DNA from: Desulfurococcales archaeon
Lineage (GTDB): Archaea; Thermoproteota; Thermoprotei_A; Sulfolobales; Desulfurococcaceae
Assembly (NCBI GenBank): GCA_027022365.1
Contig: JALVYU010000026.1
Span: forward strand, 320,001 to 384,000
DNA length: 64,000 bases
Reading direction: 5' to 3'
The position numbers and the translations under genes were made by a program. Shown here piece by piece: positions 3,357 to 7,088 of this stretch. The first letter of the stretch is position 1; the number at the start of each line of letters is the position of its first letter. A model generated the notes under the pieces. The model was given only the letters and a program-made list of their open reading frames with translations. It had not been told where the DNA came from and made no database searches.

Positions 3357-3806
3357 ATGATTAATAAAGAGAAGTTTGAATTCCTTGATCATCCAGCTGA
3401 TGTTTATATAAAAGCATATGGTGCAAGTCTACCGGAACTCTATGAAAACGCGGGGCTAGCATTGTTTGAGACTATGACTGATACTACCCTAGTAGAGCCG
3501 TTGAAAAAGTTTAGTATAGAGGCTGAGGGCTTCGATCTCGAGAACTTGCTATATAGATGGTTAGAGGAGTTGCTCTACGTATATTATAGCCATAATGTGA
3601 TGTGTAGCCGAGTAATAGTAGAAAGGATCGAGATTACAAGGCGGGAGGACTGCTTCATGTACACTATTAAGGGAGCATGTTATGGAGAAGAATTTGATCC
3701 GAGAAAACATGAAGCGCGCGTTGAAGTTAAAGCAGTAACATATCATTTAATGAAAATAATTAAGGACGAAGAGGGGTGGAAAGCCTATTTCGTTCTTGAT
3801 ATATGA
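3357..3806 (+). CDS. archease (RtcB tRNA-ligase cofactor)
   Basis: FEFLDHPADV...EVKAVTYH...FVLDI signature. Confidence 0.93.
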   Translation: MINKEKFEFLDHPADVYIKAYGASLPELYENAGLALFETMTDTTLVEPLKKFSIEAEGFDLENLLYRWLEELLYVYYSHNVMCSRVIVERIEITRREDCFMYTIKGACYGEEFDPRKHEARVEVKAVTYHLMKIIKDEEGWKAYFVLDI

Positions 3807-4405
3807 TTATCTATCGAGCTTAAAAACTCGGCTATTTTAACAGAGCATCTTTCACAATAATACATTGTCTTATAATCAACCTCAAAGACAGAGTTGCTGA
3901 AGCTCATAACACATTTAGGATTATTACAGTGCCCGAGACCTAGTAAATGCCCTAATTCATGAAGAATTTCTTTCGTCACGCGCTCGACGTAGAGATCATA
4001 CCTTTTGCCAGCATATTCACTAGCAGAATAAAATATCGGATCAAGCCTTTGAGCGGATACAAAAGCTATGCCTCTAGATGGAGAGGCCTCCCCAAACACG
4101 AAGTTAAGGCCTTCATCATAAGCATCTATGTATCCGACACCAATAACGAAAACACAGCCATCCCTAAGATCCCGAAATATCTCCGCGAGATAATCGAGTA
4201 TACACGGCCCAACATACTGTCTCCTAGACCAATCAAAACAAGACATCGGAAGCTTCAGGACCTCAGGCCATACCTCCACATCAATATACGGCGAAATACT
4301 GCTCAGGACCCCATATACATTCCTACGCCAATCCTCAATAAAATCAAAGACAAAACATCTAGTCAGCGGCACAATCAGTACCCTACTCCTCATTCCAGCC
4401 ATCAC
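3785..4405 (-). CDS. amzA: archaemetzincin (Zn metalloprotease)
   Basis: HELGHLLGLGHCNNPKCVMSFSNS...YCERC. Confidence 0.92.
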   Translation of the reverse strand: MMAGMRSRVLIVPLTRCFVFDFIEDWRRNVYGVLSSISPYIDVEVWPEVLKLPMSCFDWSRRQYVGPCILDYLAEIFRDLRDGCVFVIGVGYIDAYDEGLNFVFGEASPSRGIAFVSAQRLDPIFYSASEYAGKRYDLYVERVTKEILHELGHLLGLGHCNNPKCVMSFSNSVFEVDYKTMYYCERCSVKIAEFLSSIDNHISRTK

Positions 4406-4522
4406 TTCACATACCTATGTGTAGAATAGTGCCGCCGCGGGGATTTGAACCCCGGACAACCCGGTCTTCAGCTTCGCCGGATCACCCGTGCCAGGAGCCA
4501 ATATTTTCTTTTATGGCTACTG

Positions 4523-4537
4523 CTTATATATTTTATC
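4523..4537 (-). promoter_or_regulatory. BRE/TATA-like element (GATAAAA-TATATAAG) inside the intervening sequence
   Basis: TATATAAG ends 24 nt upstream of the first G of the 3'-half complementary leader (4499), which is canonical archaeal spacing. Confidence 0.55.
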
Positions 4538-5083
4538 CACTTTGACACCTGTGCTACCCCATAGATTGCTAGCTTGTACGCCTTATCTGATTTCCGTATA
4601 TGTGAATTAATACCGTAATTTTGCACAAGTATAGATTTTACCTGATAAAGCAAAGCTACGCTTTTGCTTGTGATCTCTATGGTTGGGTACTCTTCTACAT
4701 CAGGCTTCCTAGTATAGAATATTGTTCAGTCAGTATCAAATATCCCCCTAATTAACATATTAACATACTCGTTTTTTACCAATTCCCGCGGAATTGTTAT
4801 TATTGAGCTCTTCTTACCGGTCGGGAATCCTAGTTGTTTAAAGATGTTAAATAATTGTTTTGACTTGAATTCTATTCGGTAGGCTTTTGAACGGTATTTT
4901 ATTTTTGGTCTCTTGCCAATAATTTTTTCTATAAGTCTTGATATATGGAGCGTGTATTCGTAATCTCCTTCAGCTATCGAGAAGAAGTATTTACAGTTTT
5001 TACTATGATATAGTGATCCATCTCCAATCATTATTCCATAGAATTCCATAAACTCCTTAGTGTTAATTATGCTAGCCGTATTA

Positions 5084-5098
5084 GAAAAAAGAGAAGAA
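5084..5098 (-). terminator. U-rich terminator-like tract downstream of the tRNA 5' half and its complementary trailer
   Basis: TTCTTCTCTTTTTTC on the minus strand, about 20-35 nt after the trailer. Confidence 0.45.
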
Positions 5099-5314
5099 CA
5101 AGTATTAGAGGCAGAAAGGCTCCTGGCACGGGCGTCCACGGGCGCTCTCCCGGGCTGAGCTACGGCGGCATCGCTTACTAACATATTAATGTTACTGGTT
5201 TATTAGTTTTTATGGAGTGGTCAATTATTTGTACTCCTTTCAACATTTATTATGTATGGCTAGGAATGTCTACGTTAAAGCTATGGGGCTACCTTGTCTT
5301 GGGGGTGATCTTAT

Positions 5315-6022
5315 ATGATGGCTGTGATCCTTGCTGGTGGTTTCGGTAAAAGACTAAGACCTTATACGGAGGAAATACCTAAGCCTCTCGTTAGAGTAGC
5401 CGATAAGCCTATTCTGGAGCACCAAATAGAGTGGCTCAAACAGTATGGGTTCAACGAGTTTGTCCTACTAGTAGGCTACAGAAAAGAAAAGATAATCGAG
5501 CACATCGGTAGCGGCGGTAGATTGGGTGTTAAGGTAACCTATGTTGTGGAGGACGAGCCCCTAGGGACTGGGGGCGCGATAAAAAACGCTGAACACATAC
5601 TCTCCAAGGAGGATAAGTTCCTAGTGATAAATGGAGATATATTGACAAACCTCAACCCTCTAAAGCTATTCGAAAGACTAGAGAATGAGCCGAGACTTGT
5701 AGGTGTCATAGCAAGCATACCACTGCCAAGCCCATACGGAGTACTGGAGATCAAGGACGGAAAAGTCGTAGGCTTCGTCGAGAAACCCAGGCTCCAGGAC
5801 TACTGGATCAACGCAGGAGTATACGCCCTCAGACCAGAAGCGCTGAAATACTTCCCAGAACGCGGCGACCTAGAACGAACAGCGTTCCCAGCAATGGCTA
5901 GAGACGGCGTCCTAGGGGCAGTAAAATACACCGAGATATTTTGGAAGAGCATAGACACATACAAGGACCTCGAAGAAGCAACCAAGATAATAATCAAGAT
6001 GGGCGGTAAAATACAAGGATGA
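5315..6022 (+). CDS. NDP-sugar pyrophosphorylase / nucleotidyltransferase
   Basis: AVILAGGFGKRLRPYT...PKPL...EPLGTGGAI...NGD...EKP. Confidence 0.9.
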   Translation: MMAVILAGGFGKRLRPYTEEIPKPLVRVADKPILEHQIEWLKQYGFNEFVLLVGYRKEKIIEHIGSGGRLGVKVTYVVEDEPLGTGGAIKNAEHILSKEDKFLVINGDILTNLNPLKLFERLENEPRLVGVIASIPLPSPYGVLEIKDGKVVGFVEKPRLQDYWINAGVYALRPEALKYFPERGDLERTAFPAMARDGVLGAVKYTEIFWKSIDTYKDLEEATKIIIKMGGKIQG

Positions 6023-6026
6023 TTTT

Positions 6027-6086
6027 TCAGATTTTCCGGCTATCATCACCGCCCTTCTCGGGCTCAAGAGACCCTCTTATCATCAT
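6027..6086 (-). ncRNA. box C/D sRNA candidate with an internal hairpin
   Basis: ATGATGA-12nt-TTGA-GCCCGAGAAGGGC-GTGATGA-12nt-CTGA; TTTTTAGG about 25 nt upstream. Confidence 0.8.
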
Positions 6087-6150
6087 CAATGATAATACAT
6101 GGGTAAGTAAACCTAAAAACCCCGCCTATAATCCATAAAAACATGGATAC

Positions 6151-6229
6151 GCGGCGGTCGTCTAGCCTGGACTAGGACGCCGGCCCCCCAAGCCGGAGAT
6201 CCCGGGTTCAAATCCCGGCCGCCGCACCA
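6151..6229 (+). tRNA. tRNA-Gly(CCC), CCA encoded, C at position 33
   Basis: GCGGCGGTCGTCTAGCCTGGACTAGGACG CCGGC CCCCCAA GCCGG...GGTTCAAATCCC...GCCGCACCA. Confidence 0.93.
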
Positions 6230-6364
6230 CTTTTCATCAACAATTGTAGATCTTGTTAGAAAGATATGAAAACATTATCCATTGTTACACAATTTATATT
6301 CTATTCAATACATGGTTTCTTAAAAAGAGAACCTTATGAAGCATTGATGTATCACGTAGAATTA

Positions 6365-6453
6365 TGGCGCCGGGGGCGGGATTCGAACCCGCGCGGGCCC
6401 CGTGGCCCACTGGCTCTCAAGGCCAGCCCCTTAGGCCGCTCGGGCACCCCGGC
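6365..6453 (-). tRNA. tRNA-Ser(TGA), CCA encoded
   Basis: Anticodon arm CTGGC CTTGAGA GCCAG, long variable arm, G73. Confidence 0.95.
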
Positions 6454-6491
6454 GCCTGTTTATATGGATTTGTTCTCTGGGCTTATATTTG

Positions 6492-7088
6492 CTATTTTCG
6501 TCGGAATATTAGTATTGTGTAGCCTTTCCGGGAGATGTTCTTAACTACTTCTATGTCCTTTCTCGTGTTTAGCTTGCTGATATAGTAGTTTGCCCCTCTT
6601 GCTAAGACGAATTCTGCGTATCCTCCTTTCTTTAGGTGTTCTATGCTTCCAATAATTATTTCTTCGACAATTTCTTTACCAGCTGATATTGGTGGGTTGC
6701 TTATTATCATATCGAATATCATGCCCTTTACGGGCTCGTATACGTTGCCCTGGAGAACCCTGACTCGTTCCTCGACACCATTTAGCCTTACATTATATTT
6801 CGCTATTTTAACGGCGACAGGATTTATATCTACCATGTATATCTGCAACTTAGGATAGGCCTTAGCAAGACTTATTCCTATGACTCCGTACCCGCATCCA
6901 ATATCCAGTACTGTGCCCTCCTCAACGATTATGGCGTGTTCGAGCAACAGTTTTGTGCCTAGATCTACCTTGTTGCCTGAGAATAGGCTAGAATAAGTGA
7001 CAAATTCTAGTGTAACCCCCTTATAGACGAACGAAATAACCTGTTTCTTCCCCAGCCTATATTTGTTGGGCCTAAAATAATGTGTCAT
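6492..7088 (-). CDS. class I SAM-dependent methyltransferase (RsmC/MTS-like)
   Basis: VDLGTKLL, VLDIGCGYG, ISNPP. Confidence 0.88.
   Translation of the reverse strand: MTHYFRPNKYRLGKKQVISFVYKGVTLEFVTYSSLFSGNKVDLGTKLLLEHAIIVEEGTVLDIGCGYGVIGISLAKAYPKLQIYMVDINPVAVKIAKYNVRLNGVEERVRVLQGNVYEPVKGMIFDMIISNPPISAGKEIVEEIIIGSIEHLKKGGYAEFVLARGANYYISKLNTRKDIEVVKNISRKGYTILIFRRK

What the first reader, a model, noticed from the sequence alone, without database searches (positions are those of the whole stretch)
4430..5169. tRNA-Phe(GAA) interrupted by a 666-nt BHB intron encoding a LAGLIDADG homing endonuclease
Seen: the two exons join into a perfect tRNA-Phe. The junction at non-canonical position 30/31 forms a textbook hBHBh' (CGCC/GGCG helix, bulges CG|U and AA|G) extended by a roughly 20-bp stem. 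The loop of that stem is an ORF with two LAGLIDADG motifs (YGIMIGDG, RGIFDTD*). Known: archaeal tRNA introns are usually under about 200 nt and non-coding, while endonuclease-encoding BHB introns are characteristic of crenarchaeal rRNA genes (e.g. I-DmoI). Inference: this is a mobile homing intron that has colonised a tRNA gene, with a predicted target spanning the intron-less exon junction GGGAGAGCGCCCG^GCTGAAGACCGGG. That would offer a direct mechanism for gaining tRNA introns at non-canonical positions. Standard tRNA finders are likely to miss it.
Basis: partly seen in the sequence, partly recalled or inferred. Interest (0 to 1): 0.92.

Follow-up and report, generated by a model that had tools for sequence, protein, structure and literature searches.

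The report
Endonuclease-coding intron in archaeal tRNA-Phe
The only phenylalanine tRNA gene of this hydrothermal-vent archaeon is split by a 666-base intron carrying a recently broken homing endonuclease gene, a selfish mobile intron I found described only for archaeal ribosomal RNA genes, and it suggests how odd tRNA introns can arise.

Summary
On the minus strand, window 5169-4430 is a tRNA-Phe(GAA) gene. It is split at position 30/31 by a 666-nt bulge-helix-bulge (BHB) intron. It is the only tRNA-Phe gene in a 99.97%-complete assembly. The intron encodes a two-motif LAGLIDADG endonuclease, supported by Pfam hits above cut-off and, for an intact relative, a model resembling I-Tsp061I and I-DmoI.

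In this window the ORF is broken by one TGA. Contigs of three other sequencing runs read GGA there, and two relatives carry intact ORFs. dN/dS is 0.08-0.15.

The same intron sits at the same site in several lineages:
- four of six genomes of the genus
- another genus of the family
- another family of the class
- Candidatus Culexmicrobium

A congener has the syntenic locus with the intron precisely absent. Twelve relatives carry 21-84-nt introns at the same site with the same BHB core, and one is clearly a remnant of the long form.

The nearest protein relatives are free-standing genes that abut tRNA genes. Some lie beside a tRNA-Phe with a short 30/31 intron.

Eight full-text searches found no report of an endonuclease gene in an archaeal tRNA intron. 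Splicing, cleavage and mobility are inferred, not shown.

The parts
5139..5169 (-). tRNA-Phe(GAA) exon 1: positions 1-30, 31 nt including one extra D-loop base
   Evidence: Read directly. ARAGORN -i. Matches the intron-less tRNA-Phe of congener G001 at 31 of 31 bases.
4473..5138 (-). 666-nt BHB intron at tRNA position 30/31
   Evidence: ARAGORN -i reports i(33,666). Boundaries come from the exon matches. The same site is occupied in 22 other alleles.
4430..4472 (-). tRNA-Phe exon 2: positions 31-73 (the discriminator A; 43 nt)
   Evidence: Matches G001 at 43 of 43 bases.
5141..5144 (-). Central BHB helix, 5' strand (CGCC, tRNA positions 25-28)
   Evidence: Pairs 4 of 4 with GGCG at 4475-4478. 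The helix is kept in 23 of 23 intron-bearing alleles, with G-U variants in CGTC and GGTG.
4475..4478 (-). Central BHB helix, 3' strand (GGCG, within the intron)
5138..5140 (-). Bulge 1 (CG|U) holding the 5' splice site
4472..4474 (-). Bulge 2 (AA|G) holding the 3' splice site
5118..5137 (-). 5' strand of the long inner stem. It also encodes the conserved N-terminal peptide (V/M)DARARS.
   Evidence: Read directly. The stem is present in the minimum-energy fold. Compensatory changes occur in G002, G043 and Culexmicrobium (C-G to U-A; GGAC/GAUCC to GAAAA/UUUUC).
4479..4499 (-). 3' strand of the long inner stem. It also encodes the conserved C-terminus LLARVIRR.
4468..5139 (-). Endonuclease reading frame. 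It is open from the splice-junction codon G|TG (5139-5137) to the stop TGA at 4470-4468, which is U33-G34-A35 of the tRNA. It is interrupted once at 4728-4726.
   Evidence: Pfam LAGLIDADG_3, LAGLIDADG_2 and LAGLIDADG_WhiA hits.
5017..5040 (-). First LAGLIDADG motif (YGIMIGDG)
4726..4749 (-). Second LAGLIDADG motif (RGIFDTD). The codon for its final Gly is mutated to the stop TGA (4728-4726).
   Evidence: Gly is found here in G005, G182 and database homologues. Plus-strand 4728 reads A>C (giving GGA) in contigs of runs X6, X10 and X11; TGA is kept in X2 and in metagenome locus L068.
5197..5210 (-). Conserved A/T-rich box (AAAACTAATAAACC) 28-41 nt upstream of the tRNA, probably the promoter TATA element
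   Evidence: The same 14-mer lies at the same distance in G000, G005, G182, G003 and metagenome loci L069 and L070. The function is inferred.

Best explanation
This is the organism's single, essential tRNA-Phe(GAA) gene, interrupted at position 30/31 by a protein-coding BHB intron.

Proposed mechanism:
1. The precursor is cut at the two 3-nt bulges by the two-subunit (crenarchaeal-type) splicing endonuclease.
2. RtcB joins the exons into a normal tRNA-Phe.
3. The intron belongs to a family of mobile introns whose LAGLIDADG endonuclease is expected to cut intron-less tRNA-Phe genes at the exon junction. Repair from the occupied allele would then copy the intron in (homing).

The copy in this window was recently inactivated by a Gly-to-stop change in the second LAGLIDADG motif. 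It is at the 'degenerating' stage of the homing-endonuclease life cycle.

Shown here:
- the gene structure
- the BHB
- the protein family
- the uniqueness of the gene
- the presence/absence pattern among relatives
- purifying selection on the ORF

Inferred, not shown:
- splicing
- DNA cleavage
- homing
For: Structure:
- The exons join into a tRNA-Phe identical to the uninterrupted gene of a congener.
- The BHB is kept in 23 of 23 intron-bearing alleles.

Essentiality:
- It is the only tRNA-Phe among 46 tRNAs called by ARAGORN -i.
- No other match turned up by blastn-short or by an anticodon-arm pattern.
- The assembly is 99.97% complete.

Splicing machinery in the genome:
- two EndA-domain genes, scoring 104.5 and 40.6 bits
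- RtcB

Protein family:
- Pfam hits lie above cut-off.
- The AlphaFold model of the intact allele has pLDDT 89.5 and pTM 0.89.
- Foldseek matches include I-Tsp061I (TM 0.74/0.73), I-DmoI (0.67/0.74) and intein endonucleases.
- A profile search matches 2dch at 4.2e-8 and I-DmoI at about 3e-4.

Mobility signature:
- Long introns sit at the identical site in G000, G005, G002 and G003 (one genus), G182 (another genus), G043 (another family), G029 (another family; pieces at two contig ends) and Candidatus Culexmicrobium (another class in NCBI taxonomy).
- The intron is precisely absent from the syntenic locus of congener G001 and of G023.
- All ORF states occur. Intact: G005, G182, L069. One stop: G000/L068, and G003/L070, which on inspection also carry a shifted stretch. 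Many stops or frameshifts: G002, Culexmicrobium, L072. Internally deleted: G043.
- dN/dS is 0.08-0.15 across ten pairwise comparisons, apart from the near-identical pair G000/L068.
- Contigs with intron-less exon-exon joints occur in three of the four runs laid (X2, X10, X11), but they have other flanks, so they come from other organisms.

Not a misassembly:
- The whole 1001-nt stretch lies in single contigs of X2, X6 and X11.
Against: - No RNA data exist. No listed sequencing run is RNA, so splicing is not observed.
- The outer BHB helix has only 2 bp.
- The central helix uses C25, which is also part of the D-stem.
- The unconstrained minimum-energy fold does not draw the BHB.
- Endonuclease activity and its target are untested.
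- The copy in this window cannot make a full protein.
- The intron is no less diverged than the flanking genes, so recent horizontal transfer within the genus is not demonstrated. Vertical descent with repeated loss could explain the pattern within the family.
- The protein could be kept for a role other than homing.
Confidence: 0.85

Rival explanations
1. The endonuclease gene did not arrive with the intron. In this reading a short, non-coding BHB intron already sat at 30/31 of tRNA-Phe. A free-standing, tRNA-Phe-associated endonuclease gene next to it (a 'collaborative homing' arrangement) later moved into the intron's loop and created the composite mobile intron. This concerns the origin and is compatible with later homing.
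For: - Short 30/31 introns are common: 12 of the 32 relatives whose tRNA-Phe allele could be read.
- Related free-standing genes (32-37% identity) lie 49-82 nt upstream of a tRNA-Phe carrying a short 30/31 intron in L153, L154, L084 and L086. L153 and L154 come from another family of the phylum.
- This pathway is described for phage group I introns (PMC6083498, passages read).
Against: - In the tree, the intron-borne clade is not nested within the tRNA-Phe-adjacent clade, and basal branches are weakly supported (SH-aLRT 81-86).
- At least one short intron (G027, 43 nt) keeps 13 bp of the long intron's own stem, which points to deletion of the ORF rather than an ancestral short form.
- Only 4 of the 9 tRNA-Phe-adjacent loci inspected have the intron at 30/31.
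Confidence: 0.35
2. The intron-encoded protein is domesticated. In this reading it is kept for a host or intron function, such as RNA binding or a maturase-like or regulatory role, and no longer acts as a homing endonuclease.
For: - Strong purifying selection holds over saturated synonymous distances (dN/dS 0.08-0.15, dS 1.5-2.2).
- One otherwise intact allele (L069) has GGE in place of GDG in the first motif.
- LAGLIDADG maturases and WhiA appear among the structural matches.
Against: - BHB splicing needs no maturase (established knowledge of archaeal splicing).
- The protein is dispensable. It is stopped, frameshifted or deleted in 8 of the 11 long introns, and the intron is absent in 15 of the 32 relatives whose allele could be read.
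- The acidic residue at the end of both motifs is kept in the other intact alleles.
Confidence: 0.1
3. The locus is a dead tRNA gene disrupted by an insertion, and the working tRNA-Phe lies in an unassembled part of the genome.
For: The genome is a 44-contig assembly, and tRNAs are often missed in such assemblies (warning).
Against: - Both exons are 100% identical to functional-looking orthologues.
- The BHB is intact here and in all 22 other alleles.
- The same split gene was the only close tRNA-Phe match listed for G005, which is 99% complete.
- No second tRNA-Phe was found, and the assembly is 99.97% complete.
Confidence: 0.03
4. The feature is an assembly chimera or a self-splicing group I intron rather than a BHB intron.
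For: Bacterial tRNA genes do host group I introns with endonuclease genes (PMC3984707, abstract seen in the listing). Group I introns exist in archaeal rRNA genes (PMC6125680, passages read).
Against: - No group I intron match appeared in an Rfam scan of window 3500-7000 at E up to 1.
- Nearly the whole intron is ORF plus one stem, leaving no room for a ribozyme core.
- The stretch is whole in contigs of three other runs and in the assemblies of several genomes.
Confidence: 0.01

Closest known systems
Endonuclease-coding BHB introns of crenarchaeal rRNA genes (I-DmoI, I-Tsp061I and relatives)
   Same: - Both have a BHB splice motif closed by a long stem, with a two-motif monomeric LAGLIDADG enzyme in the loop.
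- Both occur patchily.
- The fold matches I-Tsp061I and I-DmoI.
- This genome also has such an intron in its 16S rRNA gene.
   Different: - The host gene is a tRNA, not an rRNA.
- Protein identity to the rRNA-intron enzymes found here is only 27-44%.
- The ORF fills the whole intron. Its first in-frame start codon spans the 5' splice junction and its stop lies in the anticodon loop of exon 2.
Short non-canonical BHB introns of crenarchaeal tRNA genes
   Same: - The position class is the same (30/31).
- The same splicing enzymes are implied.
- Short introns with an identical BHB core occupy the same site of tRNA-Phe in 12 relatives.
   Different: - Archaeal tRNA introns are described as short, under 100 nt (PMC4033280, passage read).
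- The mechanism of their spread is described as unknown (PMC4090602, passage read).
- This one is 666 nt and encodes a homing endonuclease.
Group I introns with homing endonuclease genes in bacterial tRNA genes
   Same: A tRNA gene serves as the homing site for an endonuclease-bearing intron (PMC3984707, abstract seen in the listing).
   Different: - Those introns are self-splicing ribozymes, while this one depends on a protein endonuclease and a ligase.
- No group I match was found here.
- My example I-Ssp6803I in a cyanobacterial tRNA-fMet intron is recalled, not checked.
Collaborative homing (free-standing F-CphI with the psbA group I intron of cyanophage S-PM2)
   Same: Relatives of this enzyme lie as free-standing genes just upstream of a tRNA-Phe that carries a short ORF-less intron at 30/31 (L153, L154, L084, L086). 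That matches the arrangement described for F-CphI, in which the intron protects its own gene and the neighbouring endonuclease mobilises it (PMC6083498, passages read).
   Different: - This involves a BHB intron in a tRNA gene of archaea, rather than a group I intron in a phage protein gene.
- The cleavage sites are untested.
Split tRNA-Lys(CUU) genes joined at 30/31 in Staphylothermus and Nanoarchaeum
   Same: The junction position is the same (30/31), with a BHB plus a long pairing between the flanks. Those authors suggested that a mobile element created such breaks (PMC3218864, passages read).
   Different: - Here the two halves remain contiguous and belong to tRNA-Phe.
- The link is only an analogy. 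A long mobile intron could be a step on the way to a split gene.

Membership tests
Archaeal BHB (splicing-endonuclease-dependent) intron | A 4-bp helix flanked by two 3-nt bulges on opposite strands, each holding a splice site | tested here: met
   CGCC/GGCG pairs 4 of 4, with bulges CG|U and AA|G. The motif is kept in 23 of 23 alleles. The outer helix has only 2 bp, so this is a relaxed form.
Archaeal BHB (splicing-endonuclease-dependent) intron | Removal of the intron yields a canonical mature RNA | tested here: met
   ARAGORN -i builds a tRNA-Phe cloverleaf. The exons equal the intron-less orthologue.
Archaeal BHB (splicing-endonuclease-dependent) intron | The host encodes a splicing endonuclease of broad specificity and an RtcB ligase | tested here: met
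   Two PF01974 genes score over the cut-off, and RtcB is present. That the two form a heterotetramer is inferred from their number, not shown.
Archaeal BHB (splicing-endonuclease-dependent) intron | Cleavage and ligation observed in RNA | not testable with these tools
   No RNA run holds the stretch.
LAGLIDADG homing endonuclease (monomeric, two-motif) | A family profile match and two LAGLIDADG motifs about 100 residues apart | tested here: met
   PF14528 at 3.4e-10, PF03161 at 5.7e-9 and PF14527 at 2.5e-6, all over their cut-offs. The motifs lie at residues 14-21 and 111-118 of the intact allele.
LAGLIDADG homing endonuclease (monomeric, two-motif) | Two alpha-beta-beta-alpha-beta-beta-alpha halves, as in I-DmoI | tested here: met
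   The model has pLDDT 89.5 and this order of elements. Foldseek probability is 1.00 to I-Tsp061I, I-DmoI, PI-PfuI and I-AniI.
LAGLIDADG homing endonuclease (monomeric, two-motif) | An acidic residue at the end of each motif, and a complete ORF | tested here: inconclusive
   The intact alleles G005 and G182 have GDG and DTDG. The window's copy stops at the Gly codon of motif 2, so it is a pseudogene. L069 has GGE in motif 1.
LAGLIDADG homing endonuclease (monomeric, two-motif) | Site-specific double-strand cleavage of the intron-less allele | not testable with these tools
   This needs enzyme assays.
Mobile (homing) intron | Presence/absence polymorphism at an orthologous site among close relatives | tested here: met
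   Congener G001 and G023 have both flanks syntenic with the intron precisely absent. Four of the six genomes of the genus are occupied, and G004's allele was not found.
Mobile (homing) intron | The same element at the same site in distant hosts, with ORF decay states | tested here: met
   Culexmicrobium (61% protein identity), G043 and G182. Intact, stopped, frameshifted and deleted ORFs all occur.
Mobile (homing) intron | Transfer shown by phylogenetic conflict or by experiment | tested here: inconclusive
   Intron divergence versus flank divergence does not separate transfer from descent plus decay.
Group I intron | A ribozyme core recognisable by a covariance model | tested here: not met
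   No group I match in an Rfam scan at E up to 1.

The most novel reading that the evidence does not exclude
Homing endonucleases may be a general, so far unrecognised source of non-canonical archaeal tRNA introns. The evidence does not exclude the following chain:
1. A large LAGLIDADG clade is specialised on tRNA genes.
2. Most of its members sit as free-standing genes whose 3' end abuts one particular tRNA (Arg-CCT, Thr-GGT or Phe-GAA).
3. Some pair with a short protective BHB intron in that tRNA, as in collaborative homing.
4. One lineage moved into the intron and now homes between tRNA-Phe genes across classes.
5. Decay of its ORF leaves the short 30/31 introns seen in many relatives.

In addition, the intron is one ORF from splice site to splice site:
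- The start codon straddles the 5' splice junction. It reads GUG in the precursor and AUG once the excised intron is circularised.
- The stop is U33-G34-A35 of the anticodon loop.
- The enzyme would therefore be made either from the unspliced precursor or from a stop-less circular RNA.
Probability: 0.35. Interest if true: 0.92.

Novelty: new variant of a known kind. Interest (0 to 1): 0.85.

Why it matters
How archaeal tRNA genes gain introns at non-canonical positions is an open question.
- A 2014 review calls the mechanism of intron transposition 'still unknown' (PMC4090602).
- A 2026 preprint on Asgard tRNA introns tested several routes and concludes that how they arrive 'remains open' (10.64898/2026.10.13.758758, abstract and passages).

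This locus gives a concrete and testable route, an endonuclease-driven BHB intron in a tRNA gene. Natural intact, broken, deleted, remnant and empty alleles are all available for experiments.

It also has practical consequences:
- Genome annotation that misses such genes will report tRNA-Phe as absent and will call a 'hypothetical protein' that runs across a tRNA exon. Several database proteins begin with the translated exon.
- The enzymes are thermostable meganuclease candidates with a predictable target.

Tried and rejected
- Expression: no RNA holder was listed. The runs are kept as contigs only, so starts, ends and splicing could not be read.
- Structure prediction by energy alone: the minimum-energy fold keeps the acceptor stem, the T arm and the long stem, but pairs the junction differently. 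I therefore rely on direct reading and on conservation across 23 alleles.
- Single-sequence search of solved structures was weak (best hit 7qsu, 6.3e-5). The profile search and the fold search were needed.
- Viral vector: a scan of viral contigs found only 11 distant relatives at 26-36% identity and none of the intron type.
- Names: none of the members read in 5 protein clusters carries a name.
- Translation starting upstream of the tRNA: in-frame start codons just upstream exist in G000, G005, G182 and Culexmicrobium. They are absent in G002, G003, G043, L069, L070 and L072, so I rejected this as a conserved feature.
- Horizontal transfer within the genus: G002 has flanks 82-92% identical but an intron about 70% identical. 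Neutral decay of a dead ORF explains this as well, so it is not decisive.
- Tree: I used the quick method only, on 79 of 91 loci. Ten loci were dropped for stops or short matches (L070, L016, L072, L087, L086, L102, L118, L119, L123, L033), and L024 and L026 gave no match. Basal support is weak.
- ARAGORN -i mislabels several intron-bearing tRNAs. L078 was called 'Arg' and G007, G018, G020, G027 and G034 were also mis-called. I re-read these by eye.
- Metagenome loci: the 75 examined are the best of 521 and were found through two conserved motifs. They are not an unbiased sample of the family.
- Literature: eight full-text searches and passages of twelve papers gave no report of an endonuclease gene in an archaeal tRNA BHB intron. 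Subscription papers and supplementary tables, such as the intron lists of tRNAscan-SE 2.0, could not be seen and may hold one.
Full report
**What is there**

Read on the minus strand, window 5169-5139 and 4472-4430 are the two halves of a tRNA-Phe(GAA) gene. They are separated by 666 nt (5138-4473).
- Exon 1 has 31 nt and ends with the fourth base of the anticodon stem, so the break is at tRNA position 30/31.
- Default ARAGORN and the Rfam tRNA model do not find it.
- The exons match the uninterrupted tRNA-Phe of a genome of the same genus at 31 of 31 and 43 of 43 bases, or 44 of 44 with the next base included.

**The splice motif**

- Exon positions 25-28 (CGCC, window 5144-5141) pair 4 of 4 with GGCG at the intron's 3' end (4478-4475).
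- On each side is a 3-nt bulge holding a splice site: CG|U and AA|G.
- Inside lies a stem of about 20 bp (5137-5118 with 4499-4479).
- Outside, only two pairs can form.
- The unconstrained minimum-energy fold (-205.5 kcal/mol; z = -6.9 against 20 shuffles) keeps the long stem, the acceptor stem and the T arm, but draws the junction differently. The motif therefore rests on direct reading and on conservation, not on energy.
- Across all 23 intron-bearing tRNA-Phe alleles I collected, the central helix pairs 4 of 4, both bulges have 3 nt and the inner helix has at least 3 pairs.
- The stem shows compensatory changes: C-G to U-A in G002, G043 and Culexmicrobium, and a wholly different but still paired stem base in Culexmicrobium.

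**The gene is needed and can be spliced**

- It is the only tRNA-Phe among the 46 tRNAs that ARAGORN -i finds in the 44-contig, 99.97%-complete assembly.
- A blastn-short search with the congener's tRNA-Phe found no second copy. An anticodon-arm pattern search gave a single hit, in an A/T-rich stretch that does not look like a tRNA.
- The genome encodes two proteins with the splicing-endonuclease catalytic domain, at 104.5 and 40.6 bits, both over the cut-off. It also encodes RtcB.
- Two such paralogues are what the broad-specificity crenarchaeal enzyme consists of. That they assemble so here is inferred.

**The protein**

The frame read through the single TGA (as X) hits three Pfam families, all above their cut-offs:
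- LAGLIDADG_3, E = 3.4e-10
- LAGLIDADG_2, E = 5.7e-9
- LAGLIDADG_WhiA, E = 2.5e-6

The TGA (4728-4726) replaces the Gly codon that ends the second motif. Evidence on this codon:
- G005, G182 and the database homologues have Gly here.
- Contigs of three other sequencing runs (X6, X10, X11) read the base that gives GGA.
- X2 and metagenome locus L068 keep TGA.

The break is therefore a strain-level nonsense change, not the normal state.

The intact 203-residue allele of G005 gives a confident model (pLDDT 89.5, pTM 0.89) with two alpha-beta-beta-alpha-beta-beta-alpha halves.
- Foldseek places it with monomeric LAGLIDADG enzymes: the TliVMA intein endonuclease, I-AniI, I-Tsp061I (TM 0.74/0.73), PI-PfuI and I-DmoI (0.67/0.74).
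- A family profile reaches I-Tsp061I at 4.2e-8 and I-DmoI at about 3e-4.
- Between G000, G005, G182 and L069, dN/dS is 0.08-0.15 with dS up to about 2, so the protein has been under selection for a long time.

**Distribution**

Among 41 genomes (this one plus 40 relatives), read further:
- 5 have a long intron at 30/31. These are G000, G005, G002 and G003, plus G029, where the two ends lie at contig ends.
- 12 have a short intron of 21-84 nt at exactly the same site.
- 15 have no intron there. G024 has a 15-nt intron at the canonical site instead.
- In 9 the allele was not resolved.

Wider searches:
- A protein search of 351 genomes of the class found close copies (52-100% identity) in six: G000, G005, G002, G003, G182 (another genus; intact ORF, 74%) and G043 (another family; 527-nt intron with the middle of the ORF deleted). 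All six are in tRNA-Phe at the same site.
- The remaining hits in that search had 26-44% identity. They had open frames of 600-2300 residues, which I took to be inteins, or they lay in 16S/23S rRNA introns.
- Candidatus Culexmicrobium cathedralense has the same intron (637 nt, 61% protein identity, frameshifted) in a tRNA-Phe whose exons differ. NCBI taxonomy places it in a different class.
- Four further copies came from metagenome contigs.
- Six database proteins (P0004-P0006, P0008-P0010) end with the peptide encoded by the stem, P0004 and P0008 begin with the translated exon 1, and none is named.

**Empty and remnant alleles**

- In congener G001 both flanks align to the window (80% and 70% identity) and the intron is precisely absent. 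The same holds for G023.
- The 43-nt intron of G027 keeps 21 nt of the long intron's 5' end and 17 nt of its 3' end, including 13 pairs of its stem. It looks like a long intron that lost its ORF.
- G018 and G020 resemble the long form more weakly. The other short introns share only the positions that the BHB fixes.
- The series of lengths (670, 666, 662, 654, 651, 637, 633, 527, 84 ... 21, 0) and of ORF states fits the invade, decay, lose cycle of homing endonuclease genes.
- Contigs that join the exons directly occur in three of the four runs laid, but with other flanks. They show that intron-less targets co-occur in these habitats. They do not show that this strain is polymorphic.

**How the ORF is set in the intron**

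- In 9 of 11 long introns the first motif is in frame with the codon that straddles the 5' splice site. This codon reads G|UG in the precursor and A|UG if the excised intron is circularised.
- The stretch between that codon and the first motif is 60, 66, 81, 84, 96 or 99 nt in six lineages. All of these are multiples of three. There are no stops in frame, against 0-2 and 1-7 stops in the other two frames.
- G182 (654 nt) and L069 (651 nt) have no stop anywhere in the intron.
- The stop codon is the TGA formed by U33-G34-A35 in exon 2.
- The last residues (LLARVIRRS) are encoded by the 3' strand of the stem, and the first (V/M-D-A-R-A-R) by its 5' strand.
- Excised archaeal introns are circularised, and ORF-bearing rRNA introns form stable circles (PMC3326292, passages).

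Whether the enzyme is made from the precursor or from a circle is open. I give this as a hypothesis.

**Nearest relatives**

- A metagenome scan seeded with the two most conserved motifs found 521 relatives. Of the best 80, five are the tRNA-Phe intron.
- In the other 75 (31-43% identity) the gene is free-standing and its 3' end abuts a tRNA gene. This holds in 50 of the 67 loci with room (31 of 67 without intron-tolerant calling), against 2 of 73 on the upstream side.
- Rfam adds four more such loci.
- In a quick maximum-likelihood tree of 79 rows, subclades follow the neighbouring tRNA. The Arg-CCT clade has 14 of 15 rows (SH-aLRT 99), and there are Thr-GGT groups and a tRNA-Phe-adjacent group.
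- The intron-borne clade branches beside them and apart from the two 16S-intron enzymes and the four intein rows. The one 23S-intron row (L043, a long branch) falls in the same unresolved node. Basal support is weak.
- In L153 and L154 (another family of the phylum) and in L084 and L086, the free-standing gene lies 49-82 nt upstream of a tRNA-Phe that carries a short 30/31 BHB intron.
- That arrangement is the one named collaborative homing in cyanophages (PMC6083498).

**Novelty and limits**

Eight full-text searches and the passages read describe endonuclease genes in archaeal rRNA introns and in bacterial group I tRNA introns (PMC4496867, PMC2738675, PMC3984707, PMC6125680). They describe archaeal tRNA introns as short (PMC4033280). 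None reports an endonuclease gene in an archaeal tRNA intron. Subscription papers and supplements were not visible. No RNA, enzyme or homing data exist for this locus.

Noticed in passing
Metagenome loci L073-L147 (for example L128:1201-1861, L118:1201-1875, L099:1201-1882): A large clade of free-standing LAGLIDADG genes was found: 521 hits, of which the best 75 non-intron loci were examined.
- The 3' end abuts a tRNA gene in 50 of the 67 loci with room downstream, against 2 of 73 on the upstream side.
- Tree subclades follow the neighbouring tRNA (Arg-CCT, Thr-GGT, Phe-GAA).
- The stop codon often lies inside the tRNA's 5' end.
I found no description of this association in the searches made.
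   Followed up: partly
L153 (G623:C9:817532-821104), L154 (G593:C7:44727-48314), L084, L086: A free-standing relative of the endonuclease lies 49-82 nt upstream of a tRNA-Phe carrying a short BHB intron at 30/31, an arrangement like collaborative homing. L153 also has a degenerate copy of the first ~29 bases of tRNA-Phe just upstream of the endonuclease gene.
   Followed up: partly
G000:C7:505-1038 (L014:505-1038), outside the window: The same genome carries a second LAGLIDADG ORF (27-28% identity) inside an intron of its 16S rRNA gene. The 16S 3'-end motif lies at L014:1907-1916, while the Rfam match ends at 1846, so there may be a further small insertion near the 3' end.
   Followed up: partly
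Whole assembly G000 (contigs C26 and C31): 40 of the 46 tRNA genes found by ARAGORN -i lie on the 627-kb contig C26 (43.2% G+C). None lies on the 494-kb contig C31 (46.8% G+C). The uneven spread is unexplained. tRNAs with unusual introns may be missed, or the bin may be mixed.
   Followed up: no
window 6025-6090 (-): A C/D-box sRNA-like sequence matches Rfam sR20 at 25.6 bits and E = 0.02, below the gathering score. It lies between a nucleotidyltransferase-like ORF and tRNA-Gly(CCC).
   Followed up: no
window 3785-4405 (-): The 206-residue ORF next to the tRNA contains an HELGHLLGLGH stretch, which by eye looks like a zinc-metalloprotease motif. It was not searched against any library.
   Followed up: no
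window 5197-5210 (-): A 14-nt A/T-rich box lies 28-41 nt upstream of tRNA-Phe. It is identical in G000, G005, G182, G003, L069 and L070, and is probably the promoter element of the tRNA gene.
   Followed up: partly
Protein P0014 (database homologue, 36% identity): By eye, its predicted C-terminus appears to read through the antisense strand of a tRNA T arm. That fits the loci where the neighbouring tRNA is on the opposite strand (for example L080, L081, L107, L124, L133, L134).
   Followed up: no
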